Source: Eledone cirrhosa (lineage: Eukaryota). From it: a stretch of DNA of 64,000 bases. Made by a program: the position numbers and the translations under genes. The stretch's first letter is position 1; each line of letters opens with the position of its first letter. The DNA is taken from NCBI GenBank assembly GCA_964016885.1, contig OZ024743.1, positions 106,826,001 through 106,890,000 of the forward strand, in the 5' to 3' direction. The notes beneath the pieces are model-generated. The model was not told the DNA's origin. It saw nothing but the letters and a program-made list of their open reading frames with translations, and ran no database searches. Shown here piece by piece: positions 5,766 through 63,538 of this stretch.

Positions 5766-7603
5766 TCATACGCGCAAAAAACTGCAAGTCATTTTTCTCA
5801 GTACAACACAAATCCAACTAGTTTACTGAAAAGTGAAATGACCCAATGCAAAAAAGACCTTGGTGAGGCATACACAACTGCTCTTGCAGAGTATGTAGAA
5901 GGAAAACTAAAGAAACTTAAGACCCTTCATATAAACAATCAACGTGCAGCCCCATGGGCGTTAATCAACGAAATAACTGGCAGAAAAGAAAATCCTTCAC
6001 CCATCATCAAACGAGGCTCTCAAGAAGCTAGGAAAAAGAGGTGGACTGACCAATTCAAGGGTCTACTGGACGAACCATCCCCTGTAGAAGGCGATCTCCC
6101 AAAGTCTGTGGTATCAACTGAACTCAATATCTCCACTGAACTTTTCACCTTGAGTGAGTTCAACCAGGTGATCAAAACACTTAAAAACAAAAAATAATCA
6201 CCTGGTTTTGACAACATACCCCATACAATTTGGAAAGAGCCAAACCTTACTTCAGTCCTATTATCAATTTGCAGCGACACATTAAGCAACACAATTCCTC
6301 CAACAAGTTGTCTAAAAGCAGGCATAGTTCCTGTCCCCCAACAAAGGGTCCTCACATCCTCCCCAAACTACCGAGGAATATCACTTATGCCCATTGCTGC
6401 CAATATCTACAAGCTAATCCTCGACCGTATAGTTCCGCATGTTGCTCAAATCCTTCACATGAACCAAAACGGTTTTAGGCGTGGTAGATCTACACTTGTA
6501 CAGATTTTGGCCTTAAGAAGAGTACTGGAACAGATGAGAAACTCCAACAGACAGATGGCTCTGCTTTTTGTTGCCTTTATAGAAGCTTTTGATTGCATAC
6601 ACAGAGACATTCTGTTTGAAATTCTACCCTTGTATGGCATACCAGCAAGACTTGTTGAAGCAATTAAGGCTCTGTATCTCAACACAAGTGCTACTATCAT
6701 CACCCCTGATGACACAACAGAGTTCTTTGACATCTAAGCAGGTGTGCTATAGGGTGACATGCTTACCCCATTCATCTTCATCATTGCACTAGAATATGCC
6801 CTGAGACACACAATTGACAAAGTCAATAACAAAGTTATAACCATCACACCCGGCACGAGCTCTAGGCACCCCTCTAAACATCTCACTGACCTTGTCATTG
6901 CGGATGACATTGCACTTCTTGCAGATTGCCTAGAAAATGCGCAACAACTTTTGACATCCCTCCAGGAAGCTGCCGCCGTCGTTGGCCTTCATCTCAACGA
7001 GAATAAAACAGAGTACATATCAAACTGTAAAGGCAATAGCATCAAAGCAATCAACGGCATTGATCAAGCAAGTCGAGGATTTCAAGTATCTTGGATCCTG
7101 GTTCATGGACTCTGAGAAGGAGTTCGCTACCAGAAAGGCCCAAGCATGGTCAACTTGCAACAAGATGGATAGAGTTTGGCGCTCATATCATTCCAACAAC
7201 ACCATAATCAGACTCCTCCAAGTAACAATTCAACCAATCTTGCTATATGGAAGTGAACATGGACACTTCCCTCCAAACTACAAAAGCACCTTGATAGCAC
7301 CTACAGTCGCCTGCTTCGGCGCATTCAGAACGTAAGCTGGCGGCATCTGACTTTGAGAGAGATATATGCCATGCTCCCACGCATATCTGTCGTGCTATGG
7401 TGCCAGCCATGAGGCTTTGTCCCCATTAGTGCTTTGGAAACCAGAAGCAGTCACTAATAACAGGGGGCGCAGGCCTCCTACCCCGATGTCAGCTCCAGAG
7501 ATTCTGGTATTGAAATCCAGGACTTTGCGACGGCAATGAACGTCAAACCCACGTGGAGATCAATTGCTGAGTCCATTTCGGCTGAGGCCGCCGGATGATG
7601 ATA
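5766..7603 (+). mobile_element. RTE-clade LINE, 5'-truncated, degenerate
   Basis: RT fragments NYRGISL, NQNGFRRGRST, F..AFDCIHR, TDLVIADDIALL, FKYLGS and ILLYGSE. In-frame stops are present. Ends in a (GAT)n tail at ~7594-7602. Confidence 0.85.
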
Positions 7604-11945: not shown

Positions 11946-14900
11946 GTGGAACACTGGAAGGTAATATCCGTAGTGGTAGAGCACTCAATCCATGGGACGA
12001 GTTAGGTAGAAGTGGTTACACAACAGTTAGTTCACCATACCGAGAACAATTGTTTCAACATAGCGGATCCTCATCTCGTAATGGGCACGGTTATAGGAAG
12101 AGGAAGGACAACCGTACGCGCATGTGCAGAAACCCGGCCACCTCACACAGGCAATACTAGAATGCGTGCGAGAGGTGTAAGGGAGATAACTGCGTAAGTC
12201 AGAACATTTTTAGTTGAAAATAAATTTACAAGGAATCAATCCGGAGCTTTGTAGTTATACAATAGGTGTTTAGCGACGTGTGGACTACGTGTGAAAAATG
12301 CATTTCTCGTGTTTAGGCAATCACTATTGCGTAATCTCTTTAGAATAGTTATTCGTTCGTCAATACATAAGCCACACGTCGGATTTCCCCTTGCGTATGG
12401 CTTGTAATTAGTGATGGCTTTCCATTGGATGGAGTAGTCTATACTTGAGACTTTGAAGGACCATACGTGGCTCGCGAGTTTCGTGGATGAACGTCTTCCC
12501 GGGTACCTGAAGGTAGACTGGTGGTTCAGGAAATGCTCCTTAAATCGGCCCTCCGCCATGCCCACATAGGATTTGACGTGCTGTGGTTCGTTTGGTAGGT
12601 TGGAAGTGAGCACAGCTTCATAAATTACAGCTGGTGTGTTGCATTGCTGTTGAAGGGCGAAAGCTTCGGGCTTACGGCAAGAGCACCCTGGTGGGTTATT
12701 GCTCCTAGGGCTGCTGGTGATGTGGGCCTTCCTGCTCCTAGCGCAGGAGTATCCTAGTTTAACTTCAGCGGTATTTATGACCTATGGGAAAGTGTCTATC
12801 TAAGAGGGCTAGACATTTTTTTCCTACATTGGTTTTAACGTTGAGTGAGAAGGGAGGAGAGAACCAGATAGTTTGTCTATTGTTACGCTTACTTTTCTTA
12901 ATGTGTTGTTGCTAGTGGGAGAGAAGATGATAGTCTGTGAGAAGCCTCTGTTAGCCAACCCCGTGTTATAGTAGTGTGCCGCCCTGTCAAAGATAGCCTT
13001 ATTAGAGGAGAGGTTTGACATTCTAGTACTGATATTCTTAACGAAGTTTCTAAAAACAGTGGGAGGGTGGCATGAGTATTTGTGAATGTAATTGAGTTTC
13101 TCGTTTAGCTTTTGGAAGGGCCTCTGGGTGTGTGTGCGAAGGTCTAAATTAATGTCTAAGAAATCTACCCTAGAGAGGTTGGGGGCTACTCTTATTCTAA
13201 GTCCTAACTCATTGAAGGTTGAAGCTAAGTCTTTTTTAAACCGGTCGAGGTAGTGACCACTTTTATGGCTCGATAAAATCAGTCCATCGTCGCGATATAT
13301 TCCCGTGTGGAAGTCCGGAAATGTAACACGTAATATGTCTAAGATAAATAGGCCAAACAAGTCACATACGTCAGCACTGTCAAACGATCCCATGGAGACG
13401 TGGAATAGGTCTGAAGTTGTAGACTTCTTTGCCCTGGCTACTCCGTCGTTCAAGAGGAGGGTTTTTCGGCAGTGAGCGATGATTTCCCTGTCTAAACCAT
13501 CGACGGTGGTATAAGTGATAGCGAAGTCCAACGCTTTGATTAACTGGGTCTCTGAGATCGACGGGTAAAAATCGACAAGGTCAAACTGTATGAACTTCGC
13601 TTTTGGGGATTTTAAGGAGTTAAACCACTTAATTACGGAGTCGCTGTTCTCCCACTGGGGCAGGTTGGACTTGGTCCTAATGTTCTTAACTATGTTTCTA
13701 AGTATGGCCTTACTGACTAATCCCATATATGTGCGTGTCGGGTTTATTAGTATACATGTGGGGTTAGATGTAAAATCTACTGTGTGATCTTTGAGGGTGA
13801 AGAACGCCTCCCGCTTAGCTAGAAGATGGACTGACTTTATCGAGCCATAAAAGTGGTCACGACCTCTACCGGTTTAAAAAAGACTTAGCTTCTAACTTCA
13901 ATGAGTTAGGACTTAGAATAACAGTAGCTACCAACCTCTCTAGAGTAGATTTCTTAGACATTAATTTAGACCTTCGCACACACACCCACAGACCCTTCCA
14001 TAAGCTAAATGAGAAACTCAATTACATTCACAAGGACTCATGCTACCCTCCCACTGTTTTTAGAAACTTCGGTAAGAATATCAGTACAAGAATCTCAAAC
14101 CTCTCCTCTAATAAGGCTATCTTTCACAGGGCGGCACCCTACTATAACACGGTGTTGGCTAACAGCGGCTTCTCCAAACCTATCACCTACTCTCCCACTA
14201 GCAACAACACCATTAAGAAAAGTAAGCGCAACAATAGACAAACTATCTGGTTCTCTCCTCCCTTCTCACTCAACGTTAAAACCAATGTAGGAAAAAAATG
14301 TCTAGCCCTCTTAAATAGACATTTTCCCATGGGTCATAAATACCGTTCCATCTTTAACCGACAAAGAGTTAAACTAGGATACTCCTGCGTTAGGAACATG
14401 AAGGCTCACATCACCAGCAGCCCTAGGAGCAACAACCCACCAGGGTGCTCTTGCCGTAAGCCCGAAGCTTGCCCACTTCAACAGCAATGCAACACATCAG
14501 CTGTAATTTAAGTAGCTGTGGTCACATCCAACCGACCAAACGAACCACAGCTGGTCAAATCCTATGTGGGCATGGCAGTGGGCCGATTTAAGGAGCGTTT
14601 CCTGAACCACCAGTCTACCTTCAGGTACCCGGGAAGACGTTCATCCACGAAACTCGCGAGCCACGTATGGTCCTTCAAAGACTCAAGTATAGACTACTCC
14701 ATCCAATGGAAAGCCATCACTAAGTCCATGCCATACGCAAGGGGAAATCCGACGTGTCGCTTGTGTATTGACGAACGAATAACTATTCTAAAGAGATTAC
14801 GCAATAGTGTTTGCCTAAACACGAGAGTGAATTTTTCACACGTAGTCCACACGTCGCCAAACACCTATTGAATAACTACAAAGCTCCGGACTGATTCCTT

Positions 14901-15122
14901 GTAAATTTATTTTCAACTAAAGATTTTCGGACTTTCGTAGTTATCTCCCTTACACCTCTCGCACGCATTCTAGTATTGCCTGTGTGAGGTGACCGGGTTT
15001 CTCCGCATGCGCGTACGGTTGTCCTTCCTGTTCCTATAACTATGCCCATTACGAGCTGAGGATCCGCTAAGGTGAAAAAATTGTTCTCGGTATGGTGAAC
15101 TAACTGTTGTGTAACCACTTCT
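11942..15122. mobile_element. Penelope-like element (YRDDGL type, Nematis-like) as inverted pair: minus arm 11942-13824, plus arm 13825-15122
   Basis: RT in ORF 12824-13726 (FIQFDLVDFYPSI, MGSFDSA, GIYRDDGL). Linker CSCRKPEACPLQQQC. GIY-YIG C-terminal half (SYVGMA..FKERFLNH, CxLC..E) in both arms. Flanked by (TA)n. Confidence 0.92.
15052..15089 (+). ncRNA. pLTR hammerhead (mirror copy at 12041-12078, minus)
   Basis: CGAG CTGAGGA T-CC-gctaa-GG-T GAAA (C)AATTG TT CTCG. Each arm has different lesions, but their consensus is an intact core. Confidence 0.7.
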
Positions 15123-16937: not shown

Positions 16938-17435
16938 ACATAATTCAAGAAAGAAGAGTGACATGGTTGGCTATACAATAAGGGCTTTATTCACATTGCT
17001 GACAATTGTTTCTTTGATCTGGTTGGTCTAGAGTTCGCTAATCGCTTGATTTTGCGTCAATCGATCTCCAATACTTTGTTTATAACCAGTCGTTTCATCA
17101 GAGCGTGCGATGACATGAGTGGTTATAAAAAAAGTATTGGCGTTCGATTGACAAAAAATCAAGCGATTAGCGAACTCTAGACCTACCAGATCAAAGAAAC
17201 AATTAGCAATGTGAATAAAGCCCTTATTGTATAGCCAACCATGTTACTCTTCTTTCTTGAATTATTATTACTCCAAGTATAAACTACATAGACATCACCG
17301 TGAACTCGCAACATCACTATGGAAACGTCTTATTGAGTTAAACTAAGCCATACGTTAATACCATCCACAACAGGGAGTACTCTAACTGGACTACATCTAA
17401 GTGGACTGCCTATAACAATAACCTGTTATCCCATA
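16938..17435. mobile_element. Inverted (palindromic) pLTR insertion
   Basis: Arms ~16940-17090 and ~17118-17266; the right arm extends ~170 bp further. Minus-strand HHR with a long stem II insert (CTGATGA at 17095-17101; GAAACAATTGTC at 17001-17012). Same family as 50875-51428. Confidence 0.8.
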
Positions 17436-18912: not shown

Positions 18913-19002
18913 TCCTCTTGATAAGTCGGCAGACCTCACAAAAATTATATATCTCTGTGATGTAGTGTTTTTGCATATGCCACGAAACTACGTAGTCGAG
19001 GA
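18913..19002 (+). ncRNA. Hammerhead ribozyme with UUGAUAA (U3-A8) core variant
   Basis: TCCTC TTGATAA GT-c-GGCA...TGCC-AC GAAAC TACGTA GTC GAGGA. Confidence 0.75.
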
Positions 19003-26291: not shown

Positions 26292-26295
<4 letters not shown>

Positions 26296-26540
26296 TGTTT
26301 ACAAACTCACCGAGCATTATAATAAATGTTCGGTGAATCCATAGGTACATATATATATGTGTGTGCATGTGTGTATACATATATACATACTACTGTACGT
26401 CTGTATACATATATGTATGTACGTATACATACTTATATTTAAGTAACAGCCGTACTAATAGTGGGAAATGAAATGTTTCCGTTTATATATATATATATAT
26501 ATAAACGGAAACATTTCATTTCCCACTCTTAAGAAGGGTT

Positions 26541-41189: not shown

Positions 41190-42068
41190 TTTTCATACTT
41201 AGGGAGGGGTCTTGTTTCCCAATAAAAACACAGACACCTGTCGATTTTCCCTTCAATTTATTATACAATTCCTTTTGGTTGGCTGGCTGGTTGGTTCGAT
41301 AACCGGAAGGTTGTTCGTATATTGTTAAAGCCCTTTTGGCATACATTCTGTGACCTCTCCATTGGCTAACTTTTTATTTCGTGTCTCTCTCCTTTGTTCT
41401 GCCATACACCATTTGTTTTTGTGTGTAGTGTGCTTAGTTTGCGCATGCGTTACATCCTGGTGTGTGTTTGTGTTTTTATTTATTTATGTGCTTATGTATT
41501 TGTCACTAGTTGGTTCGTTGGTTGTTCTATCTGTATGCGTCTGATTTGTCGTGTTAGTTTGGTTTTGTGTGTGTCTGTATGTCTGCATTTTGTACTTAAT
41601 TATTAGTTGTGATGCTGCTATTCCATTCATATTTTCTGAGTTCGTTTATATTATATTTGTTGCCTCTGTGATTTGACTGAGTATTTGATCTTTTCTCTGT
41701 GTGGATATAATTTTTATCTCTATGTTCTCTAATGTGCCCCTATGTTCTATTTTGGCATGTTGGTGGAGTACTGATGAGTCTTTCCCTTCCTGGAGTTCTC
41801 GCCAATGTTCACTTATCCTTTCTCCTATGCTACGGACTGTTTCACCTATGTATGTTATATTCTTATTCCTAAACTGTCCCTCAGTACATCTTATGCTATA
41901 TACTACATTTCTAGTTTTGTAATTAATTTGTGGGCTTACCTTGCAGACTATGCATCTCCTATCAGCAAAGGGGGATCCTTTCACCAACCAACCGGAAATT
42001 CATAATAAATTGAAGGGAAAACCAACAGCTGCGTGTGTTTTTATTGGCAACATGTCTCTCCTAAAGTA

Positions 42069-43414: not shown

Positions 43415-44978
43415 CATAATCGGAGAAAGCTAATAGCGATACTCCGGCCAAATTCCAACTCACTCAACAAACATTAGGAAATACCTGAGTATATTCCTAA
43501 TTAAACGTTCGGGGTGCTAACTAATTGTATTGTGTGGAAAATTGGCTGTATCATTTCAAATGAGATATATCAAATATATCACTTCCCAGATTTCTACAAG
43601 TTGGGTGAAATTATTCCAATTTATGTAGAAGCTTGTATAAGATCAACAGTTACTTATTCAAGTGGGCTCTTATAATTCTTCAGTGGGTGCCCAATAATAT
43701 TAATATTGATAACCAAATCAACATCAATATTTAGCGATAATCACCATCAGTGCTTGAGGGAGCTGCTAGGTTGTTAGTCCAGCAGTTCTAAAGAAAATCT
43801 CACACTGTCTCAAAAATAGGAGGAAGGAGACTACCGCGAAAAAACAATACATGCGCAGGTCAATGAATTCTGAAAATAATTCAAGCCACGTGCTAGAACT
43901 CAATTGAATATGAAAATACAAGCACATGTGCGCACCGTTTGATGAGACACATAGATATTTTCTCGGGCAAAATAACAGAATGAGATACAAGAACAAACAA
44001 TCAATATTCATATAAAAAGGCGGTGGATTGGCAGTATCGGTAGAGGGTCGGACGCCATGCTTTCCAGCATAGTTACGTCCCTTTACGATCTGAGTTCAAA
44101 TCCCGCCGAGGTTGACTTTGCCTTTCATCCTTACGGGGTCGATAAAATAAGTACCAGTAATGAACTGGATAATTGCTGGCCTTGTGCCTAAAGTAGAAAC
44201 ATATATTCATATAAAAAAATAATCAAAGAGAGTCATACCTTATATCGGGAAAGTTCATATCTGTTGCTCCAAGAGTAAATATATAAATACATAATCGGAG
44301 AAAGCTAATAGCGATACTCCGGCCAAATTCCAACTCACTCAACAAACATTAGGAAATACCTGAGTATATTCCTAATTAAACGTTCGGGTTGCTAACTAAT
44401 TGTATTGTGTGGAAAATTGGCTGTATCATTTCATTTGAGATATATCAAATATATCTCTTCCCAGAGGACTCGTTTCACTATAAGATTTCTACAAGTTGGG
44501 TGAAATTATATCAATTTATGTAGAAGCTTGTATAAGATCAACATATACTTATTCAAGTGGGCTCTTATAATTCTTCAGTGGGTGCCCAATAATATTAATA
44601 TTGATAACCAAATCAACATCAATATTTAGCGATAATCACCATCAGTGCTTGTGGGAGCAGCTAGGTGGTTAGTCCAGCAGTTGTAAAGAAAATCTCACAC
44701 TCTCTCGAAAATAGGAGGAAGGAGACTACTGCCAAAAAACAATAGATGAGCAGATCAATTAATTCTGAAAAGAATTCAAGCCACGTGCTAGAACTCAATT
44801 GGATATGAAAGAATAACCACATGTGCGCATCGTTTGATGACACACATAGGGTATTTTCTCGGGCAAAATAATAGAATGAGATACAAGAACAAACAATCAA
44901 TATTCATATAAAAAATAATCAAAGAGAGTCATACCTTATATCGGGAAAGTTCATATCTGTTGCTCCAAGAGTAAATAT
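43415..44978 (-). mobile_element. Tandem pair of ~690-bp units with a long-stem-II hammerhead
   Basis: Units at 43415-44282 and 44290-44978. Minus-strand CCCA CTGAAGA ATTATAAGA...TCTTATAGT GAAACGAGTCCTC TGGG at 44460-44582. The GAAAC segment is deleted in the left copy. Confidence 0.7.
44019..44202 (+). mobile_element. tRNA-derived SINE with 15-bp TSD
   Basis: TSD ATATTCATATAAAAA at 44004-44018 and 44203-44217. The empty site is visible in the duplicate unit at ~44900. Confidence 0.95.
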
Positions 44979-44984
44979 ATATAT

Positions 44985-45869
44985 ATATGAATGTATATAT
45001 AGTGTATTTTGCAATACACTGTATGCTTAATTAAAAGCAGTTCGAAGACCTTACGCTATTGTTTTAGAGTAGTGACAGTCTCACAGCAAACAGGGGAGAT
45101 AAAGCTGACAGAGCTATGTTTCGTACTGATTGGTACTTATCTAAGCCAAGTACTCCACCTGTTTGCTGAAAATCATGAATGTTTGATTCTTATTGAATTA
45201 TAGTAATAATCCGGAACTGATTATACAAAAGCATTTCGAAGACCTGACCGGGGGCCGCTCTGTATAATCAGTTCCTGATTATTACTAGAATTCTATAAGA
45301 ATCAAGCATTCATGATTTTCAGCAAACAGGTGGAGTACTTGGCTTTGATAAGTACCAATCAGTACGAAACAGAGCTCTGTCAGCTTTATCTCCCCTGTTT
45401 GTTGAACATTTAAAGTAAGTGAGACTGTCCCTACTCTAAAACAATAGCGTAAGGTTTTCGAAATGCTTTAAATTAAGCATACAGTGTTTTGCAAAATACA
45501 TTATATACATTCACATATATATCGCTATTTCAGAGCAATAATTCTAATTTTCAATTTCTACCTGACCGGCAACCGCTCTGTGTAATCAGTTCCTGATTAT
45601 TACTAGAATTCTATAAGAATCAAACAATCATCATTTTCAACAAACAGGTGGAGTACTTGGCTTTGATAAGTACCAATCACTACGAAATAGACCTCTGTCA
45701 GCTTTATCTCCCCTGTTTGCTGAAAATTTAAAGTAAGTGAGACTGTCACTACTCTAAAAGAATTGCGTAAGGTCTTCGAAATGCTTTTGCAAAATACACT
45801 ATATTGCAAAATACACTATATATACATTCATATATATATATCGCTATTTCAGAGCACCAATTCTAATTA

Positions 45870-45872
<3 letters not shown>
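44985..45872. mobile_element. Retrozyme-like ~318-bp family: inverted partial unit plus about 2 direct units
   Basis: Minus arm 44985-45244; plus units start at ~45244 and 45562. HHR-like motifs at 45103-45147 (-), 45341-45385 and 45659-45703. Shares blocks with the 310-bp array. Confidence 0.8.
45341..45385 (+). ncRNA. Hammerhead ribozyme with UUGAUAA (U3-A8) core variant
   Basis: GGCT TTGATAA GTAC-caatca-GTAC GAAAC AGAGCTCT GTC AGCT. Confidence 0.75.
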
Positions 45873-45904
<32 letters not shown>

Positions 45905-46642: not shown

Positions 46643-46647
<5 letters not shown>

Positions 46648-47086
46648 TAAAAGGAATTCCAACTTTATCTGATTTACTCGTTTTATTTGCAATCCTTTAA
46701 AATTATAATGAGATTATAATGAAAGAGTATGGTAGAATATTAAATGTTAAGTGTTAATTGAACAAGTACTTTCATGCTTTCGCAATCTTCAGGTTCATAT
46801 TCAGTGGTGACAGTCAAATTTGCAATTTTTAACTGTGTTGAAAATTGCCAACTTGAGTGTCACCACTGAACATGAACCTGAAGATTTTGAAAGCATGAAA
46901 ATTGCAAACTTGACTCTCACCACTGAATATGAACCTGAAGATTGCGAAAGTATGAAAGTACTTGTTCAATTAACACTTAACATTTAATATTCTACCATAC
47001 TATTTAATTCTAATATCATTATAATTTCAAAGGATTGTAAATAAAATGAGTAAATCAGACAAAGTTGGTATTCCTTTTATTAATAT
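46643..47086. mobile_element. Palindromic pLTR insertion with a hammerhead in each arm
   Basis: Arms ~46643-46830 and ~46898-47086. TGAAC CTGAAGA T-TGC-gaaa-G(C/T)A-T GAAA GTACT T GTTCA at 46759-46797 (-) and 46930-46968 (+). Partial ~58-bp duplication near the centre. Confidence 0.85.
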
Positions 47087-47614: not shown

Positions 47615-50525
47615 ATTGTTATACTTGGGGAGGGTCATATTTGTGTAATATTGCCAGAATTAATAACAGAACACACTCACTGTTTGGTTGGTTTTCGCTT
47701 CTCGCTTCTGTGTCTTTTATATCGGTAATCTAACTTACTCGGTCCTCAATGTTGCCATTGTCTGACCGACGGTCAAAAATAATACAGATACAATATAGAC
47801 ACAAACACATATATATAGTTTATCATAAATCTTTCGTTGCACATCTACAACATCGTCAGTGGTGCTATATTTTCCTCCTGTTGTATTGTATGTCTACGCC
47901 ATTTTTATTCAGTCTGTCTATATATTTATTTATTTATTTGTTTGTTTGTTTATTTTATTTTGTCTTCTTTGCGCATGCGTTTGCGTGTGTGTATAGTGTA
48001 TTGTTTGCTGTGTGATGGGTGACTAGTGTGTGTTTATGTGCTTGTTGTTATTGTGCTTGTGTATGTATTTATTTATTTATTTTATTTTATTTACTTATTT
48101 ATACTTCTCTTAGGTCAGTTTGGTTGGGTGTTGTTGTTATTCCATTCATTCTTTCTTTCTAGCCTTGGTCTTCTAATTTCTATTTCACTGGCCTCTCTGA
48201 TTTGCCTATCTGCTGGGTCATTTCTATGTTTAGATATTATTCTAATTTCTATGTTGTCTATGTTACCGTCATGTTGTTGTCTAGCATGTTCGTATAGTAC
48301 TGACCCGTTTTTTCGTCCTTTTAGTTCCCCCCAGTGTTGGTCTATCCTTTCACCTATGCTACGAGCTGTCTCACCTATGTATGTTGTTGTCATGTTTCTG
48401 CAAGTACCCTCTGTACATCTTATGCTATAGACTACGTTTCTAGTTTTACAGTTTATCCGGGGGTTCACCTTACATATGATACATTTCCTATTGGTACAGT
48501 GGATTTTCTTAAAAGGGTAGGTTTTGCTGATCAGGCATTTTATGGTGGTTCCTGGCTTTTTTACCACCTTTATTTTTAAGTGGGTCTTTCTCAGGGCTGT
48601 TATACACTGGTTAGCTAATTTCCCTCCAGGGGTAGCGTCCACAACATGACACTCTGGTATCTCTGGTTGGCGTACCATGAGGTGGCTTTCCCTATCTTAT
48701 GTCTAGCCCTATCTAAGCTATTCCATGATTTGCTCCTGTATAATGGGCAAATTCCTTTCATGTCCAGTTCTATGAGGGTCTTATACTTCTCCATGGCTCC
48801 TTCGTATACTCTGACTCTGTCTCTTTGGTTGTAGCCAGAGGACTGCATGCGGTTGATGAAGTGTTGGATGTGTCTTTCCATTTCTGTTGGGTCGCACATG
48901 CGGGACACATTCTTCATCACTCGTACCAAATCTGCAATCAGAATATTAAACTTAGCACTACTGGACATTGCTGAGTTTTTGAGTATCAGGTATTTGGAGG
49001 CCATGGGTTTAGCATAGTGTGAGTGGAGAATTTGGGCTCTCTCGTCTATAGTGTTAATCCAGAGTTCTGTGTCTAATACAGGTAGTCTATTGTTAGGGTG
49101 TTTGGAAGGGAAGTCGATAGTTACAGTTATACTCTGGTGTATGGAATTAGCTATCTGCTGGATGCTTTCCATCGTGCTACGTTCTAAATCAAACTTGTTA
49201 GTGCTCTCTAGTGGGGGTGTTCTTATAACTATATTGATATCGTCTACATAACGAGAGTACATGATGAGGTCTATGGAGCTCTCATTAAGGAGATCTTTAA
49301 GTCTCCTTTCCCACCATTCCATGAAAAGGTTGGCAACGTCACCAGCTATGCTGACGCCGATGGCTGCTCCCTCATTTTGGGTGTAGATCTTCTCGTTGAA
49401 CTTAAATATGTGGCCCTTTAGGGTAGTTTTGATACTAGCCCCTATTGCATGTGCGACCATTTTTCTTACCTGATCATTGTTTTGGGGGGTCCGTATAGCT
49501 TTGGTCCACCCAATCCACCTTCCCATGGGAGTCTTTTTTGCCATTGAGGTTATGGTGGGGGATCTACCTCTTATAGCTCTACTAGGGCAGAACCGTCTAA
49601 GGTCATGGCTGTCTAGGTAGTCAGTGTCGTAGGTAAGTCTAAGTAGGAGGCCCAGTTCGTCTGTGTCGACGTCGCAGAACTCCACCTCACTCTCAATGAT
49701 CATCTCCACACATCTTTTCACAGCAAAATCAATGTTAATGGATGGGTACAGTGACACCACATCCATGCTGCCTATTATGCAGTTGGATAGGTTCCTGTTT
49801 TTGTTGCACTCATTGATTCTGCTAAGGAGGTCCTCTGTACTGTCGCATACATCTGGGAACATCTTCATTATGGGGCGTATAACCATTGCGAGGAACTAGG
49901 AGATCCTGTAGTTGCTAGCTATATTAGCTCCGCATACGGGTCTTGTTGGTGGTCCTGTTGTCGGGTCGTCGACTGCCTTGTGGTCTTTGCGGAGCCCATA
50001 CAAGGGTAGTATGCCATTGTTAGACGCCTGGAAGTTGTTGGCAGTGCGTCTGCTTGGCTTTAGGATGTCAATCCACATCATCATGTGAGCGTTGAGGATT
50101 TTCTCTCTCCCATCGTGTGTTTGTTGTGCAATTTCGCTCATGTTGGTGATGTGGGGTTGCATAGCCTTGATGTAGTTCGGCATTCTATCTATTGACACCC
50201 TACCAGACTTATCCGTGGGTAGACATACTACCTCACCATCCCTTGTGCGCTGCTTGAGGCTAACCAAGCCTTCTACAGGTTTCCTCCCAAGTTGTTGGGC
50301 CTCTGGTCTGCTATGTCTCTTAGTATAACTGTCTAATATTTGTCTAATCTTATTTCTAGCTATGGTGAACTGTGCCTCTGTCTCGTCATCTATTTGTTGT
50401 GGTATGCAAACTCTTTTATTAAAGGGTAACCTCGTAGGATAGATATTACCCATCTTATATGTTTTGTCAGCTGGGTTGAAAAATAGTTTCTCTAAGGGGT
50501 TGTCATTATATCTATCGTCATAGTT
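47615..50525 (-). mobile_element. Penelope-like element (YVDD type, Cys-rich linker, C-terminal GIY-YIG), 5'-truncated
   Basis: PTDKSGR, GLRKDHK, RPVCGA, GSMDVVSLYPSI, GAAIG, YSRYVDDI, LPVLD; CTNRKCIIC..C; VVYSIRC..YIGETAR. One TAG stop (49896) and one frameshift (~48650). Degenerate HHR at 47822-47863. Confidence 0.92.
48115..50453 (-). pseudogene. PLE reverse transcriptase-GIY-YIG polyprotein, two lesions
   Basis: ORFs 49896-50453, 48615-49886 and 48115-48678 join into one RT-EN protein. Confidence 0.88.
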
Positions 50526-50834
50526 GTGTGTGTTGCTATTATTGTTATCATGGTGGTTGTTGTTGTTTCTATCATTAGCATTATTATTATTGTTAAGATT
50601 GCTAGATGTATTGTTGTTTACTTCACCGTTATTGTTGTTGTTACTGTTATTTCTACCATTGTGGTTGTTACTTTTATTATGTTTCTAGTTTTTGTTGTGT
50701 CTATCATTGATGTTGCTACATGTACTATTTCCATTATTACCACTGTGGTAATTGTTCTTGTTGTTCGTATTCTTACTGTTAATTATATATATATATATAA
50801 TTATATATCTTTCTAATTGTATTAGATATATATA

Positions 50835-50876: not shown

Positions 50877-51423
50877 CGGGGTAACAAATAATAGTTATAT
50901 GCAGTCCACTTAGGTGTAGTCCAGTTATGGTACTCCGGGTAGTGGATGATATCAACTCTTGGCTAAGTTTGACTCAACAAGGCGTTTCCATAGTGATGCT
51001 GCGAGTACGCTGTAATTTCTATGTTGTAAACACTTGGAGTAATAATAAATCAGGAAAGAAGAGTGACACGGTTTGCTATACAAAAAAGATTTTGAATCTC
51101 ATTGCTGACGATTGTTTCTCTGAACTGGTAGGTCTAGCGATCGCTATCCGCTTATTTTCACGTTACTCGATTGCCAATACAAAGTTATAACCAGTCAGTT
51201 CATCGGAGCTTGCGAGAATGTAGAGAATATACATGCCTATATATTCTCTTCATTCTCGCAAGCTCCGATGAACTGACTGGTTATAACTTTGTATTGGTGA
51301 TCGAGTAACGGGAAAATAAGCGGATAGCGATCTTTACACCTACCAGTTCAGAGAAACAATTGTCAGCAATGAGATTAAAAACCTTTTTTGTATAGCAAAC
51401 CGTGTCACTCTTCTTTCCTGATT

Positions 51424-51430
<7 letters not shown>
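50875..51430. mobile_element. Inverted (palindromic) pLTR insertion
   Basis: Arms ~51044-51231 and ~51240-51428; the left arm extends ~170 bp further. HHR-like GCT CCGATGA ACTG...CAGTTCAGA GAAACAATTGTC AGC in both arms. Confidence 0.85.
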
Positions 51431-51460
<30 letters not shown>

Positions 51461-51470
<10 letters not shown>

Positions 51471-54400
51471 AATATAGACATAGAATATTCGAAAATATTC
51501 TGTATGTTTATAATAAACATTTTGAAGACCTAATCGCTATAGAATAGAATACGTCACGTATTACAATTAGATTCTCGATAAAAGCAAGGGAAGTAATCTA
51601 CGCGTTTCATTCTTGTTAGAAATCATCAGGACCACATATCCAGTGCTTTTATCGAGAATGACACAGCTAGAGACTTATAGAATACTTAGCTGTGTACAGG
51701 AACTGGTTTGAAAGAGCGGTTGCCGGTCCGGCAGAAATTAGAAATTGGAATAAATGCTCTGAAATAGCGATATATATGTGAATATAGACATAGAATATTC
51801 GAAAATATTCTGTATGTTTATAATAAACATTTTGAAGACCTAATCGCTATAGAATAGAATACGTCACGTATTACAATTAGATTCTCGATAAAAGCAAGGG
51901 AAGTAATCTACGCGTTTCATTCTTGTTAGAAATCATCAGGACCACATATCCAGTGCTTTTATCGAGAATGACACAGCTAGAGACTTATAGAATACTTAGC
52001 TGTGTACAGGAACTGGTTTGAAAGAGCGGTTGCCGGTCCGGCAGAAATTAGAAATTGGAATAAATGCTCTGAAATAGCGATATATATGTGAATATAGACA
52101 TAGAATATTCGAAAATATTCTGTATGTTTATAATAAACATTTTGAAGACCTAATCGCTATAGAATAGAATACGTCACGTATTACAATTAGATTCTCGATA
52201 AAAGCAAGGGAAGTAATCTACGCGTTTCATTCTTGTTAGAAATCATCAGGACCACATATCCAGTGCTTTTATCGAGAATGACACAGCTAGAGACTTATAG
52301 AATACTTAGCTGTGTACAGGAACTGGTTTGAAAGAGCGGTTGCCGGTCCGGCAGAAATTAGAAATTGGAATAAATGCTCTGAAATAGCGATATATATGTG
52401 AATATAGACATAGAATATTCGAAAATATTCTGTATGTTTATAATAAACATTTTGAAGACCTAATCGCTATAGAATAGAATACGTCACGTATTACAATTAG
52501 ATTCTCGATAAAAGCAAGGGAAGTAATCTACGCGTTTCATTCTTGTTAGAAATCATCAGGACCACATATCCAGTGCTTTTATCGAGAATGACACAGCTAG
52601 AGACTTATAGAATACTTAGCTGTGTACAGGAACTGGTTTGAAAGAGCGGTTGCCGGTCCGAGTCTCTAGCTGTGTCATTCTCGATAAAAGCACTGGATAT
52701 GTGGTCCTGATGATTTCTAACAAGAATGAAACGCGTAGATTACTTCCCTTGCTTTTATCGAGAATCTAATTGTAATACGTGACGTATTCTATTCTATAGC
52801 GATTAGGTCTTCAAAATGTTTATTATAAACATACAGAATATTTTCGAATATTCTATGTCTATATTCACATATATATCGCTATTTCAGAGCATTTATTCCA
52901 ATTTCTAATTTCTGCCGGACCGGCAACCGCTCTTTCAAACCAGTTCCTGTACACAGCTAAGTATTCTATAAGTCTCTAGCTGTGTCATTCTCGATAAAAG
53001 CACTGGATATGTGGTCCTGATGATTTCTAACAAGAATGAAACGCGTAGATTACTTCCCTTGCTTTTATCGAGAATCTAATTGTAATACGTGACGTATTCT
53101 ATTCTATAGCGATTAGGTCTTCAAAATGTTTATTATAAACATACAGAATATTTTCGAATATTCTATGTCTATATTCACATATATATCGCTATTTCAGAGC
53201 ATTTATTCCAATTTCTAATTTCTGCCGGACCGGCAACCGCTCTTTCAAACCAGTTCCTGTACACAGCTAAGTATTCTATAAGTCTCTAGCTGTGTCATTC
53301 TCGATAAAAGCACTGGATATGTGGTCCTGATGATTTCTAACAAGAATGTAACGCGTAGATTACTTCCCTTGCTTTTATCGAGAATCTAATTGTAATACGT
53401 GACGTATTCTATTCTATAGCGATTAGGTCTTCAAAATGTTTATTATAAACATACAGAATATTTTCGAATATTCTATGTCTATATTCACATATATATCGCT
53501 ATTTCAGAGCATTTATTCCAATTTCTAATTTCTGCCGGACCGGCAACCGCTCTTTCAAACCAGTTCCTGTACACAGCTAAGTATTCTATAAGTCTCTAGC
53601 TGTGTCATTCTCGATAAAAGCACTGGATATGTGGTCCTGATGATTTCTAACAAGAATGAAACGCGTAGATTACTTCCCTTGCTTTTATCGAGAATCTAAT
53701 TGTAATACGTGACGTATTCTATTCTATAGCGATTAGGTCTTCAAAATGTTTATTATAAACATACAGAATATTTTCGAATATTCTATGTCTATATTCACAT
53801 ATATATCGCTATTTCAGAGCATTTATTCCAATTTCTAATTTCTGCCGGACCGGCAACCGCTCTTTCAAACCAGTTCCTGTACACAGCTAAGTATTCTATA
53901 AGTCTCTAGCTGTGTCATTCTCGATAAAAGCACTGGATATGTGGTCCTGATGATTTCTAACAAGAATGAAACGCGTAGATTACTTCCCTTGCTTTTATCG
54001 AGAATCTAATTGTAATACGTGACGTATTCTATTCTATAGCGATTAGGTCTTCAAAATGTTTATTATAAACATACAGAATATTTTCGAATATTCTATGTCT
54101 ATATTCACATATATATCGCTATTTCAGAGCATTTATTCCAATTTCTAATTTCTGCCGGACCGGCAACCGCTCTTTCAAACCAGTTCCTGTACACAGCTAA
54201 GTATTCTATAAGTCTCTAGCTGTGTCATTCTCGATAAAAGCACTGGATATGTGGTCCTGATGATTTCTAACAAGAATGAAACGCGTAGATTACTTCCCTT
54301 GCTTTTATCGAGAATCTAATTGTAATACGTGACGTATTCTATTCTATAGCGATTAGGTCTTCAAAATGTTTATTATAAACATACAGAATATTTTCGAATA

Positions 54401-55692
54401 TTCTATGTCTATATTCACATATATATCGCTATTTCAGAGCATTTATTCCAATTTCTAATTTCTGCCGGACCGGCAACCGCTCTTTCAAACCAGTTCCTGT
54501 ACACAGCTAAGTATTCTATAAGTCTCTAGCTGTGTCATTCTCGATAAAAGCACTGGATATGTGGTCCTGATGATTTCTAACAAGAATGAAACGCGTAGAT
54601 TACTTCCCTTGCTTTTATCGAGAATCTAATTGTAATACGTGACGTATTCTATTCTATAGCGATTAGGTCTTCAAAATGTTTATTATAAACATACAGAATA
54701 TTTTCGAATATTCTATGTCTATATTCACATATATATCGCTATTTCAGAGCATTTATTCCAATTTCTAATTTCTGCCGGACCGGCAACCGCTCTTTCAAAC
54801 CAGTTCCTGTACACAGCTAAGTATTCTATAAGTCTCTAGCTGTGTCATTCTCGATAAAAGCACTGGATATGTTGTCCTGATGATTTCTAACAAGAATGAA
54901 ACGCGTAGATTACTTCCCTTGCTTTTATCGAGAATCTAATTGTAATACGTGACGTATTCTATTCTATAGCGATTAGGTCTTCAAAATGTTTATTATAAAC
55001 ATACAGAATATTTTCGAATATTCTATGTCTATATTCACATATATATCGCTATTTCAGAGCATTTATTCCAATTTCTAATTTCTGCCGGACCGGCAACCGC
55101 TCTTTCAAACCAGTTCCTGTACACAGCTAAGTATTCTATAAGTCTCTAGCTGTGTCATTCTCGATAAAAGCACTGGATATGTGGTCCTGATGATTTCTAA
55201 CAAGAATGAAACGCGTAGATTACTTCCCTTGCTTTTATCGAGAATCTAATTGTAATACGTGACGTATTCTATTCTATAGCGATTAGGTCTTCAAAATGTT
55301 TATTATAAACATACAGAATATTTTCGAATATTCTATGTCTATATTCACATATATATCGCTATTTCAGAGCATTTATTCCAATTTCTAATTTCTGCCGGAC
55401 CGGCAACCGCTCTTTCAAACCAGTTCCTGTACACAGCTAAGTATTCTATAAGTCTCTAGCTGTGTCATTCTCGATAAAAGCACTGGATATGTGGTCCTGA
55501 TGATTTCTAACAAGAATGAAACGCGTAGATTACTTCCCTTGCTTTTATCGAGAATCTAATTGTAATACGTGACGTATTCTATTCTATAGCGATTAGGTCT
55601 TCAAAATGTTTATTATAAACATACAGAATATTTTCGAATATTCTATGTCTATATTCACATATATATCGCTATTTCAGAGCATTTATTCCAAT
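51461..55692. repeat. 310-bp hammerhead-containing tandem array (retrozyme-like) with central inversion
   Basis: About 3.9 minus units (period marks 51471, 51781, 52091, 52401), then about 9.8 plus units starting at 52661, 52971 ... 55451. Units are essentially identical; substitutions were seen only at 53349 and 54873. Confidence 0.97.
52701..52743 (+). ncRNA. Type I hammerhead ribozyme (representative of 14 copies)
   Basis: GTGGTC CTGATGA T-TTC-taacaa-GAA-T GAAA CGCG TA GATTAC. Predicted cleavage after 52737. Enclosed by the 16-bp stem ATTCTCGATAAAAGCA/TGCTTTTATCGAGAAT. Confidence 0.92.
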
Positions 55693-58823: not shown

Positions 58824-58828
<5 letters not shown>

Positions 58829-59398
58829 GGATTTAAATGGATACAGTCCAGTAAAAGGAATTTATTGACACGTGTTTCAATAACAGTTATATAACCTGAA
58901 AACGGTTGCTATCTACAAAGTATTAATTATGCAGACACTCAATATTTCAATGTTATTTTCAACTATCATTTCATCAGAATAATCTCATTGAGAACTTGTT
59001 TGGTTTTTATAGAGAATATTAAGAGGGAGGAGTGAAGTTAGAAGAATAGTTAAGGAAGTGGATAGAAATGTTTGATAGCAGTGGTAATTAGATTCCCATC
59101 TGTTGTTTTGACATTATTATAGAATACATTATTTGGCGTTGGTTATTTTTCTAAATCTATAGAATGATTAGAGATAGTAAAGATAGGCATGGTTGGTTTT
59201 GTGTTTGCACTTAATTAACATACAGACTTAAATTTTTCTTTCAAGTGTGTGTATCCATTCGCCCTCACATAGATATATGTGTATATATACTTATTTTTTT
59301 TAAAAAACATACACATTCACACACATACATATATGCACACCTCTACAAATACATGCACTCATATACACATACTTACATGCTCATACTTACATACCTAT

Positions 59399-59475
<77 letters not shown>

Positions 59476-62400
59476 TATATCTACCCACATACGCATTCAT
59501 GTATATACACTTTCATACTCTACTTATCTTCATATACACACATATAGACACACACATATATACATACATACTCCTGTCTATGTGTATATATATATATAAA
59601 TACACATATACATGAATACACATACATTTAATTATACACATCAAATATATATATATATATACACACTCGCCCACTTATTTATTTATTTATATACATTTTC
59701 ACCTAATTACATACATATGGTCGCTTTTAGACACATTCATTATAGCATATTCGCACCTATTCTCACCAGCATATTTATCCATTATTAGTGTGATAATTTA
59801 AGGTTATTAATAGTACATATATATGTTGAGAAGTGATTGTTTTTATATTTTTCTAACTAGATTGAGGATTTGTATAGTTGGGAGGATGTCCCTCGTTTAT
59901 GTAATATTCAGCTTGTAGTGGGAAAAAAGGGTTTTAGTTCGGTGACGGCAGAATAATGTTCGTTCAATTCTGTTATTAAGCAGTTTCTTCTTGTGTGTGA
60001 TTATGTAATAAATCTCAAGATTACATAATTTGCAGTAATTTTGGCTCCTGGAAAAGCTTTGGGTTTTAGCTAATTTCTCCCATTTTAGGGTAAACTTTTG
60101 ATCGCTATCCCTGAGTGTCCAAGCTTTTTCTGCTAAAGTTGTTACATTTCTTTGGCTCTGGTGTTTTCTTGAGTTAGAATGCCTATATAATCGAGATTTA
60201 AACGATGTTGCCGTTGATCCCACGTAATACCACTCGTTGCCTCCGGATTCAATGGTACACTTATAGATGATTTTTTTTTCAAGGCAGTTATTGCCGAGGG
60301 GGCAATTGTCAGGATAGGTGCAGTTACAGTTGTGTACGTTGGTTTTGTAGTTAGGTTTACTCTGGAGTAGTATTGCGGACGAACTTAGGTGTGGTTTATT
60401 TATGTTCTGTAGTGTATTGTCTACTGTTTTTTTTTGTGCTCTTTGTACTTAAGTTTTTAGTGTTTTCGTTTAACCTTCTAGTATTGATCTTTTTTATGTG
60501 TTGTTCAAGGTTTAACGCTGTAGAGTATGACAGTCTTATAGTGGTAGGGTTTAGGATTTGGTGGTATTTGTATGATGTAGGAAAATGTTTCCTAACTATT
60601 TTAAAGAAGAGTACTGGTAAATGTGTACTAATGGAAACATTGTATTCAGGTTTATACCATAAGTACTCTTTGCATCGCTTTCTATTAGTTTTGTTTGTTG
60701 GTTTACTGGTGTGTACACTATGGTAGTAAGTGTGGTTTGGTGTTGTGTTATTATTTCTACCTATATAGGATTTATTTTGGGTGTTTTGATTGTTTTCATC
60801 TATATATTCTATTTTGTTGAGGTAGCCTGCTTTACTAAGGGTAATTATCGTAGTATTCGGCGTGTTCCTTAAATACTTGTATGTTAGAAGATAGACCCGA
60901 GATTCTAAGGGAAATATTTTTAGGGATAGATTTAATTATAGAGATGGGGTCGTTAGACCCAACATTTACGTACTTGAGATTTTCATTCAATTTATTAAAC
61001 GGTTTAATCAGACCAGAGTTTAACTACTTTAAGGCTGTGTTCATATGTTATAGTTAGTCCTATTTCGAGTAGTAGTTTTCTTATATCTTTGCGTAGTTTT
61101 TCTAGTTTTTGGTTATTTAGGTTTTTAACTAGGAGGAGAGCATCATCGCAGTATATTCCACCGTGGAGATTACTGAATTTTTCCTGGAGTTTAAAGGCGA
61201 TAAATAACCCCACAATTTCAGTTATTTCCGCCGAATTGTTAGAGCCCATTGTTATGTCAAATTTGGAGGGTCTATCTTTACGAACCCAATAACTGTTCTC
61301 AAATTTGACTATAGTTTTCCTAGCTTCAAATATAATCTTAATTTCTTCATTTGTAAGGTCAGAGTTATCATTAGCAAACTCAATGGTTCTATTCAGAGTT
61401 TCAGGTGATATCGATGAGTAATATTCATCGATATCAAACTGGATAAACTTAGATTTATTCTTATTGCTAATGCTATTAAACCATCTAATTGCTTCTTGGG
61501 TCTTCCCCCAGAGTTTAATGTTAACCTTAGCCTTAATTTGGGGGATGATTCTATCTAAGATATATTTGCTTAGTGTTATTAAAAAAACTAATAGAAAGCG
61601 ATGCAAAGAGTACTTATGGTATAACCCTGAATACAATAGTTCCATTAGTACAAATTTACCAGTACTCTTCTTTAAAATAGTTAGGAAACATTTTCCTACA
61701 TCACACAAATACCACAAAATCCTAAACCCTACCACTATAAGACTGTCATACTCTACAGCGTTAAACCTTGAACAACACATAAAAAAGATCAATACTAGAA
61801 GGTTAAACGAAAACATTAAAAACTTAAGTACAAAGAGCACAAAAAAAAACAGTAGACAATACACTACAGAACATAAATAAACCACACCTAAGTTCGTCCG
61901 CAATACTACTCCAGAGTAAACCTAACTACAAAACCAACGTACACAACTGTAACTGCACCTATCCTGACAATTGCCCCCTCGGCAATAACTGCCTTGAAAA
62001 AAAAATCATCTATAAGTGTACCATTGAATCCGGAGGCAACGAGTGGTATTACGTGGGATCAACGGCAACATCGTTTAAATCTCGATTATATAGGCATTCT
62101 TACTCAAGAAAACACCAGAGCCAAAGAAATGTAACAACTTTAGCAGAAAAAGCTTGGACGCTCAGGGATAGCGATCAAAAGTTTACCCTAAAATGGGAGA
62201 AATTAGCTAAAACCCAAAGCTTTTCCAGGAGCCAAAATTTCTGCAAATTATGTAATCTTGAGATTTATTACATAATCACACACAAGAAGAAACTGCTTAA
62301 TAACAGAATTGAACGAACATTATTCTGCCGTCACCGAACTAAAACCCTTTTTTCCCACTACAAGATGAATATTACATAAACGAGGGACATCCTCCCAACT

Positions 62401-62671
62401 ATACAAATCCTCAATCTAGTTAGGAAAATATAAAAACAATCACTTCTCAACATATATATGTACTACTAATAACCTTAAATTATCACACTAATAATGGATA
62501 AATATGCTGGTGAGAATAGGTGCGAATATGCTATAATGAATGTGTCTAAAAGCGACCATATGTATCTATATAGGTGAAAATGTATATAAATAAGTAAATA
62601 AGTGGGCGAGTGTGTATATATATATATTTGATGTGTATAATTAAATGTATGTGTATTCATGTATATGAGTA

Positions 62672-62702
<31 letters not shown>

Positions 62703-62799
62703 ATAGACAGGAGTATGTATGTATATATGTGTGTGTCTATATGTGTGTATATGAAGATAAGTAGAGTATGAAAGTGTATATACATGAATGCGTATGTGG

Positions 62800-62848
<49 letters not shown>

Positions 62849-63538
62849 TGCATATATGTATTTAAGTATGGGCATGTAAGTATGTGTATATGAGTGTATG
62901 TATTTGTAGAGTTGTGCATATATGTATGTGTGTGAATGTGTATGATTTTTAAAAACATAAGTATATATACACATATATCAATGTGTGGGCGAATGGATAC
63001 ACACACTTGAAAGAAAAATTTAAGTCTGTATGTTAATTAAGTGCAAACACAAAACCAACCATGCATATCTTTACTATCTCTAATCCTTCTATAGATTTAG
63101 AAAAATAACCAACGCCATATAATGTATTCTATAAAAATGTCAAAACAACAGATGGGAATCTAATTACCCACTGCTATCAAAAATTTCTATCCACTTCCTT
63201 AACTATTCTTCTAACTTCACTCCTCCCTGTTAATATTCTCTATAAAACCAAACAAGTTCTCAATGTGATTATTCTGATGAAATGATAGTTGAAAATAACA
63301 TTGAAATATTGAGTGTCTGCATAATTAATACTTTGTAGATAGCAACCGTTTTCAGGTTATATAACTGTTATTGAAACACGTGTCAATAAATTCCTTTTAC
63401 TGAACTGTATCCATTTAAATCCTTCTATTTTTCTCCGGATTACTTTTGAAACTACAACTGGAACCGTCGAGCAAACCCTACGTGAGCTGTCCATCTACTG
63501 TGTATAATATTCATATTACAACACTACGGAAAATACTA
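58824..63538. mobile_element. Penelope-like element (Nematis-like) as inverted pair: minus arm 58824-~61584, plus arm ~61585-63538
   Basis: RT motifs FIQFDIDEYYSSI, MGSNNSAE and GIYCDDAL. Linker CNCTYPDNCPLGNNC. GIY-YIG (IIYKC..YVGST, CKLCNLE) in both arms. The long 3' UTR is duplicated in inverted orientation. Confidence 0.93.
63269..63389 (+). ncRNA. pLTR hammerhead with 72-nt insert in loop II (mirror at 58862-58982, minus)
   Basis: TTATT CTGATGA AATGATAGTT-(72 nt)-AACTGTTATT GAAAC ACGT GTC AATAA. Confidence 0.85.

What the first reader, a model, noticed from the sequence alone, without database searches (positions are those of the whole stretch)
45341..45703. Second, unrelated family using the same UUGAUAA core
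Seen: both plus copies carry TTGATAA (the inverted copy reads TAGATAA). In the first copy stem II is a perfect GTAC/GTAC and stem III is the long palindrome ACAGAGCTCTGT. The flanks are unrelated to those at 18913. Inference: the double change predates insertion, so the U3-A8 variant has been fixed at least twice or exchanged as a module.
Basis: partly seen in the sequence, partly recalled or inferred. Interest (0 to 1): 0.72.

Follow-up and report, generated by a model that had tools for sequence, protein, structure and literature searches.

The report
U3-A8 hammerhead in tandem retrozyme repeat
The sequence holds a hammerhead ribozyme motif whose core pair is U-A instead of the usual C-G, set in a 318-base, multi-copy, non-coding repeat that is likely cut out of its own RNA by this motif and likely copied around the genome by Penelope-like jumping genes; this core swap is already published, so it is a new example of a known kind.

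Summary
Observation confirmed. 45341-45385 is a complete type I hammerhead motif with a compensatory U3-A8 core, 4-bp stem II, 12-nt palindromic stem III and predicted cut after 45381. The second copy keeps the core but has damaged stems; the inverted copy has U4 changed to A. The motif lies in a 318-nt, ORF-less, 35% GC unit arranged inverted + direct + direct inside (TA)n, with a 27-nt one-sided tail: Penelope-type insertion anatomy. Reads from four public runs show a multi-copy family with two compensatory stem II changes (about 30%/29% and 18%/18% of reads) and no core reversion among the 40 best-supported variant rows (129 hidden). It is unrelated to the 18918 motif but homologous end to end to a canonical-core (CUGAUGA) 310-nt array at 51460-55692; canonical-core relatives also appear in the reads. 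Independent origin of U3-A8 is therefore likely and module exchange unsupported. U3-A8, including the heptamer UUGAUAA, is in print for Schistosoma Penelope-type hammerheads (about 1,300 hits) and reported active in vitro. Verdict: a new, probably cephalopod, non-LTR retrozyme family with a known core variant; cleavage and expression untested.

The parts
45341..45385 (+). Type I hammerhead motif, copy 1 (intact): U3-A8 core 45345-45351, stem II 45352-45365, stem III palindrome 45369-45380, predicted cut after C45381
45318..45406 (+). Extended helix I (internal loop, 4-bp, bulge, 13-bp arm) enclosing the hammerhead; geometry like canonical HH9 but one pair shorter
45242..45559 (+). Repeat unit 1 (318 nt, 35% GC, no ORF)
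45560..45868 (+). Repeat unit 2 (91% identical to unit 1), ending in the 27-nt tail before (TA)n
45659..45703 (+). Hammerhead copy 2: intact U3-A8 core 45663-45669, damaged stem II (45680) and stem III (45688, 45692); predicted cut after C45699
44977..45241 (-). Inverted, 5'-truncated unit; joins unit 1 through 4 shared bases at 45242-45245; runs out into (TA)n
45103..45147 (-). Hammerhead copy 3 (inverted): core TAGATAA 45143-45137, U4 changed to A, probably dead
45872..45902 (.). (TA)n tract at the right end of the insertion; a shorter (TA)n tract at about 44975-44988 forms the left end
51460..55692 (.). Sister family: 310-nt units, 3.9 inverted + 9.8 direct, canonical CUGAUGA core (13 of 14 units with an intact core), homologous to the finding's unit along its length
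18913..19002 (+). Comparison motif: unrelated hammerhead with the same UUGAUAA core (U3=18918)

Best explanation
This is a type I hammerhead motif with a compensated U3-A8 core inside a 318-nt multi-copy tandem repeat, likely a non-autonomous Penelope-derived retrozyme whose multimeric transcripts would self-cleave after C17, predicted to work mainly as a double hammerhead through the palindromic stem III. Shown: the anatomy, the tandem/inverted layout in (TA)n, compensatory variation in stem II, a canonical-core sister family. Inferred steps: (1) read-through or unit-driven transcription of tandem units; (2) cleavage after 45381 and 45699 releases a 318-nt monomer; (3) a host ligase would circularise it, as reported for animal retrozymes; (4) RT and GIY-YIG endonuclease of an unidentified Penelope-like element would copy it in trans into (TA)n, giving tandem plus inverted 5'-truncated copies with a one-sided tail; (5) U3-A8 arose in this lineage from C3-G8 by two transitions, separately from the 18918 family, and spread with an amplifying subfamily. 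This particular locus is an aged insertion (copies 91-95% alike) with one intact motif of three, and is probably weakly active at best.
For: Anatomy and chance level. Structure under selection: in raw reads of X7, T45353C 400 of 1347 with A45364G 390 of 1333, and C45355T 246 of 1346 with G45362A 229 of 1299 (both restore stem II pairs); in X4 all four changes have the same depth (9.89) and two contigs; G45341A 541 of 1038 turns a G-U into A-U; unpaired loop positions 45359 and 45360 vary in 65% and 71%. Head-to-tail joints 45559 to 45245/45255 in X1 (7 and 9 contigs) and X4 (1). Dimer: the unconstrained minimum-energy fold of copies 1+2 already pairs the two stem III segments and swaps stem I (-113.9; double hammerhead -112.7; two monomers -99.5 kcal/mol); stem III duplex -20.1 against hairpin -1.8. 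Penelope-type insertion: inverted truncated copy, (TA)n at both ends, direct arm 27 nt longer than the inverted arm, 26 nt in the sister array, as described in PMC8557442. Penelope-like RT and GIY-YIG remnants abound in the window. Literature.
Against: No cleavage or expression data. No autonomous partner: the unit matches none of the Penelope-like ORF regions in the window. Two of three local copies are damaged; predicted occupancy of the full double hammerhead is 1.6%, of the half that cuts after 45381 3.6%, of the half that cuts after 45699 38%; the monomer fold lies 3.2 kcal/mol above a competing fold. Rfam score is far below gathering. In the 2026 preprint only 1 of 9 genomic retrozyme dimers cleaved in vitro. 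Read shares come from RAD-seq and an 80% likeness filter that sheds diverged (canonical-core) relatives, so they are not copy frequencies; linkage of the compensatory changes is inferred from matching counts, not read by read. The tail is 26-27 nt, below the 30-40 quoted.
Confidence: 0.82

Rival explanations
1. The unit is the pseudo-LTR (3' terminal repeat) of an autonomous Penelope-like element and this locus is simply a heavily 5'-truncated insertion of it; the hammerhead processes the element's own transcript.
For: Same insertion anatomy; retrozymes are related to pLTRs; most PLE insertions are 5'-truncated.
Against: Loose ends before 45256 read as the previous unit's tail (323 reads in X7, 31 contigs in X1) and joints are head-to-tail; no coding flank among the 23 loose-end rows shown, 296 hidden. 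The sister family forms a 14-unit ORF-less array. Helix geometry is canonical rather than the minimal form typical of animal PLEs. The two readings differ only in autonomy.
Confidence: 0.1
2. The family is catalytically dead: U3-A8 is AT-ward decay in a master copy, amplified as a satellite or passive passenger; the hairpin is kept for another reason or not at all.
For: Both changes are GC-to-AT transitions in a 35% GC context; two of three local copies are damaged; predicted competing fold; most tested Xenopus dimers were inactive.
Against: The two changes are exactly the pair that restores Watson-Crick pairing; two further compensatory pairs in stem II while the core shows no top-ranked variant; U3-A8 is reported active in vitro (citing Przybilski and Hammann 2007, not read).
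Confidence: 0.07
3. The UUGAUAA core was transferred as a module between this family and the 18918 family (recombination or template switching).
For: Identical heptamer plus the same first two stem II pairs and G-U-C cleavage triplet; in reads the ends of the unit are covered several-fold deeper than the hairpin, so hairpins vary more than ends across the wider family.
Against: No similarity outside the core; the hairpin arms of this family still align with those of the canonical-core sister (1 and 14 of 1000 shuffles); the same heptamer occurs in Schistosoma, so recurrence needs no transfer.
Confidence: 0.04

Closest known systems
Non-LTR retrozymes of animals (Cervera and de la Pena 2020, PMC7229834; Li, Clavereau and Pollet 2026, bioRxiv 10.64898/2026.07.22.740005), e.g. 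the 350-390-bp Mytilus repeats
   Same: Short (318 nt), low-GC, ORF-less tandem unit with one type I hammerhead each; co-occurs with Penelope-like elements
   Different: U3-A8 core (not mentioned in the passages read); 12-nt palindromic stem III; inverted truncated copy with tail; no circRNA evidence here; probable cephalopod host not found in my searches
U3-A8 hammerheads of Schistosoma mansoni Cercyon Penelope-like elements (Cervera and de la Pena 2014, PMC4209133)
   Same: Same covariation; supplement row Schistosoma_mansoni(3) has the same heptamer UUGAUAA; about 1,300 hits; palindromic 15/16 region; predicted dimer
   Different: Those are minimal motifs without helix III, with an extra base after A9 and no defined loop 1; this one has a 4-bp helix II directly after A9, a long helix III and an HH9-like helix I
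Canonical type I hammerhead, Rfam Hammerhead_HH9 (RF02275)
   Same: Full-length alignment; 4-bp stem II with 6-nt loop (commonest read variants move it toward the HH9 loop), bulged helix I
   Different: U3-A8 for C3-G8; proximal helix I one pair shorter; 18.1 bits against 52
Natural U3-A8 core variants (Perreault et al. 2011, PMC3088659)
   Same: Same compensatory pair, described there as natural and active in vitro
   Different: Here it is the majority state of a multi-copy animal repeat subfamily with a canonical-core sister

Membership tests
Type I hammerhead ribozyme | Core N3 UGA N N8 A ... GAA A15.1-U16.1 H17 with N3-N8 paired | tested here: met
   Copy 1 and 2 complete with U3-A8; inverted copy fails at U4
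Type I hammerhead ribozyme | Three helices, open end in helix I | tested here: met
Type I hammerhead ribozyme | Covariation supporting the helices | tested here: met
   Two double changes in stem II, one G-U to A-U in stem I; none seen for stem III among rows shown
Type I hammerhead ribozyme | Rfam gathering score for a hammerhead model | tested here: not met
   HH9 18.1 bits against 52; none of the window's canonical-core motifs reaches gathering either
Type I hammerhead ribozyme | Site-specific self-cleavage after H17 | not testable with these tools
   needs in vitro assay
Non-LTR retrozyme | Tandem units of 150-450 bp, one type I hammerhead each | tested here: met
   318-nt units; head-to-tail joints in X1 and X4
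Non-LTR retrozyme | Low GC, non-coding | tested here: met
   GC 0.349; longest stop-free stretch 70 codons in six frames
Non-LTR retrozyme | [quoted passage not shown] | tested here: inconclusive
   Both direct units have complete cores, but unit 2 has damaged stems
Non-LTR retrozyme | Expressed as monomeric linear and circular RNA | not testable with these tools
   no RNA run available to lay
Non-LTR retrozyme | No LTR, primer binding site or polypurine tract | not tested
   no dedicated search made
Penelope-like element insertion (pLTR) | Partial tandem with adjacent inverted 5'-truncated copy | tested here: met
Penelope-like element insertion (pLTR) | (TA)n target and 30-40-bp one-sided tail | tested here: inconclusive
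   (TA)n at both ends met; tail present but 27 nt (26 in sister array)
Penelope-like element insertion (pLTR) | Linked RT + GIY-YIG ORF | tested here: not met
   none at this locus; no match to the window's Penelope-like ORF regions
Minimal PLE hammerhead (min-HHR) | No or tiny helix III, extra base between A9 and 10.1, long helix II | tested here: not met
   12-nt helix III segment, no extra base, 4-bp helix II

The most novel reading that the evidence does not exclude
One cephalopod retrozyme superfamily holds both core states, and its U3-A8 branch was favoured because, in front of this family's own palindromic stem III, a C3 core pairs with that stem and traps an inactive fold (predicted 3 kcal/mol penalty). 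The family would then be a natural, many-copy record of a catalytic-core base pair being swapped for folding reasons, shared across three organisms, with wobble intermediates recoverable from genomes.
Probability: 0.2. Interest if true: 0.5.

Novelty: new member of a known kind. Interest (0 to 1): 0.28.

Why it matters
Modestly. It extends hammerhead retrozymes to a probable cephalopod genome, where at least seven hammerhead families sit in one 64-kb window and none reaches an Rfam threshold, so standard annotation misses them. It shows the known U3-A8 core in a full-architecture tandem hammerhead beside a canonical-core sister family, a convenient natural pair for testing how a catalytic base pair is exchanged. 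It does not reveal a new ribozyme class or a new core.

Tried and rejected
Genome-wide descriptor search: no genome is held for this window; replaced by laying four public runs on one unit. Expression: no RNA holder listed; no evidence either way. Metagenome pattern scan: 2 loci, one and the same sequence, rejected as chance (stem II unpaired, G at position 17, unrelated flanks). Earlier-findings look-ups by place and by sequence were blank. Rfam at gathering level: nothing in the window; at E up to 10 the better-scoring miRNA and sRNA hits reflect the inverted repeat and were rejected. Pol III promoter boxes (consensus patterns recalled): no A box and no convincing B box in the unit, so a tRNA-type SINE origin is unsupported. 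Link to a Penelope-like ORF in the window: none. Relationship of the unit to the hammerhead regions at 11091, 26059, 46935, 63274: not convincing (2, 1, 7, 62 of 100 shuffles). Misfolding hypothesis: observed 2.95 kcal/mol, reached by 35 of 600 randomised-stem controls, so suggestive only. Papers not held: PMC1986816, PMC5785218. Searches for C3U/G8A wording gave nothing useful.

Full report
Observation. Copy 1 is a complete type I hammerhead motif: stem I 45341-45344/45382-45385, core TTGATAA 45345-45351, stem II GTAC/GTAC around a 6-nt loop, GAA, the 12-nt palindrome 45369-45380 and C17 at 45381. Copy 2 keeps the core (45663-45669) but has a C-C mismatch in stem II and two changes in stem III. 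The inverted copy reads TAGATAA (45143-45137, minus strand), so U4 is lost. A strict descriptor found copy 1 and gave 0.05 U3-A8 hits per window in 40 simulated windows. The enclosing 96-nt hairpin folds at z -5.9. Rfam reports nothing at gathering level in the window but aligns HH9 over its whole length here at 18.1 bits; the alignment shows canonical geometry, with the proximal helix I one pair shorter.

Locus. The motif is part of a 318-nt unit (GC 0.349, no stop-free stretch over 70 codons). The layout is (TA)n, inverted truncated unit (45241 to 44977), unit 1 (45242-45559), unit 2 (45560-45868), (TA)n. The copies are 91-95% alike. The inverted arm stops in the unit's own AT tract and the direct arm runs 27 nt further. 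Partial tandems, an adjacent inverted truncated copy, a one-sided tail and (TA)n targets are the insertion marks of Penelope-like elements described in PMC8557442 (passages read; the tail is given there as 30-40 bp). The window has several Penelope-like RT and GIY-YIG remnants, but none shares sequence with this unit. The named relatives of one neighbouring RT with highest identity are Octopus vulgaris proteins (5 of 63 hits, 49-72% over 13-42% of the query; most hits are unnamed), so the host is probably an octopod; this is inference from a mobile gene.

Other copies. No genome is held, so I laid 4 of the 9 listed runs on unit 1 at 80% likeness: 2427, 35 and 6 contigs from runs labelled organisms A, B and C, and 7735 raw RAD-seq reads from organism A, about 1,300 deep at the core. 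Among the 40 best-supported variant rows (129 not shown) there is none at 45345 or 45350; shown rows go down to about 17%, so reversion is probably below that, which is an inference from the listing rule. Stem II covaries: T45353C 400 of 1347 with A45364G 390 of 1333, and C45355T 246 of 1346 with G45362A 229 of 1299; in X4 all four have identical depth in two contigs. G45341A (541 of 1038) turns a wobble into A-U. Loop positions 45359 and 45360 vary in 65% and 71%. One stem III change, G45372T (152 of 1344), has no partner among the rows shown. Head-to-tail joints and diverse loose ends at 45548-45550 show a tandem and dispersed family. These shares are biased by RAD sampling and by the likeness filter: three loose-end rows (3 contigs in X1, 1 in X4, 1 in X6) show relatives that match the 5' part and continue into a canonical core (CTGAAGA in X1, CTGATG in X6, CTGA in X4).

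Relatives in the window. The array at 51460-55692 (3.9 inverted and 9.8 direct units of 310 nt, 99-100% alike) is homologous to the finding's unit: local score 97 against a shuffle maximum of 35; 5' block, hairpin and 3' block each 0 of 500 shuffles; arms without the core 1 and 14 of 1000. It carries CUGAUGA in 13 of 14 units with intact cores and has the same inverted/direct/(TA)n layout with a 26-nt tail. The 18918 motif is unrelated (48 of 100; arms 407 and 623 of 1000). Five of the seven hammerhead families seen in the window are canonical. The simplest history is that U3-A8 arose in this lineage separately from 18918; direction (C-G to U-A) is inferred from the canonical state of the relatives, without a rooted tree. 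Module exchange has no positive support.

Mechanism. The palindrome forms a weak hairpin (-1.8) but a strong duplex (-20.1 for two intact copies, -11.5 for copies 1+2), and the unconstrained fold of the natural tandem already adopts the swapped double-hammerhead arrangement (-113.9; constrained double -112.7; two monomers -99.5). Predicted occupancy is low for the full double form (1.6%) and uneven between halves (38% and 3.6%); tertiary contacts are not modelled. Cleavage at both sites would release a 318-nt monomer. Circularisation by a host ligase and copying by a Penelope-like RT/endonuclease in trans are taken from PMC7229834 (passages and section 14) and the 2026 preprint (parts 1 and 3 of 5 and a term search; its supplements were not seen); none of this is shown here, and that preprint found only 1 of 9 dimers active.

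A side result. Swapping the core to C3-G8 in silico stabilises competing folds by 2.95 kcal/mol in copy 1 (C3 would pair with the stem III palindrome), 1.22 in copy 2 and 1.32 at 18918, against -1.91 to 0.47 in the five canonical families. Against it: 35 of 600 randomised-stem controls reach 2.95, only seven families were compared, and flanks may have adapted after the core changed. It is a testable lead, not a result.

What is known. PMC4209133 (main text parts 1-2 of 4; supplement file 2 part 2 of 3 and a term search; file 1 not searchable) reports U3-A8 in Schistosoma mansoni Cercyon elements, about 1,300 hits, lists a motif with the heptamer UUGAUAA, and also a U3-G8 motif in Saccoglossus. 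PMC3088659 (passages and section 8) reports natural U3-A8 covariation and cites in vitro activity (Przybilski and Hammann 2007, not held). Lunse et al. on dimeric PLE hammerheads was not held and is known here only through a review passage (PMC6765202); it may list similar variants. PMC6155905 and PMC7151607 (passages) added nothing on this pair. Searches for octopus or cephalopod with hammerhead, Penelope or retrozyme listed no paper on such a family; the library lacks most subscription journals and Repbase or Dfam could not be checked. Earlier notes of this scan list several U3-A8 motifs in other genomes, unchecked.

Verdict. A real motif and probably a functional family, of a known kind with a published core variant. 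The new parts are the host group, the full-architecture setting and the canonical-core sister. Interest 0.28.

Noticed in passing
window 51460-55692: Very young array of 310-nt units (99-100% alike), 3.9 inverted + 9.8 direct, canonical core, U-U at the base of stem II, A at position 17; the best candidate in the window for an active retrozyme.
   Followed up: partly
window 18913-19002 (+): Second U3-A8 hammerhead with a 59-nt stem II region and 10-nt palindromic stem III, just after a (TA)n tract; single copy in the window.
   Followed up: partly
window 11091 and 11513 (+): Canonical-core (CUGACGA) hammerheads in a 422-nt tandem; part of the unit recurs at 26293-26474 (89%).
   Followed up: no
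window 26059 (+): Canonical-core hammerhead between microsatellite tracts, long stem II.
   Followed up: no
window 46644-47083: Inverted pair with CUGAAGA hammerheads (46792 minus, 46935 plus) and a 57-nt internal duplication, flanked by (TA)n.
   Followed up: no
window 58825-63426: Penelope-like element with inverted arms and a CUGAUGA hammerhead with a 92-nt stem II region in each arm (58977 minus, 63274 plus).
   Followed up: no
window 12009-15121, 41646-41999, 48115-50684: Further Penelope-like RT and GIY-YIG remnants; no hammerhead found beside them with my descriptors.
   Followed up: partly
window 16943-17431 and 50879-51427: Another family with fold-back layout in (TA)n (72% alike), no hammerhead found; possibly a different ribozyme or a hammerhead-less Penelope-type end.
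   Followed up: no
window 43419-44018 / 44294-44914 and 44203-44292 / 44900-44988: Tandem duplication directly left of the insertion; its first copy shows the short AT-rich target without the insertion.
   Followed up: no
window 9102, 26836, 27335, 40333, 40831, 44019, 57915: Dispersed repeat of about 190 nt, 77-94% alike, SINE-like.
   Followed up: no
window 1480-2406 (-) and 6198-7335 (+): Broken non-LTR retrotransposon pieces (AP-type endonuclease; reverse transcriptase).
   Followed up: no
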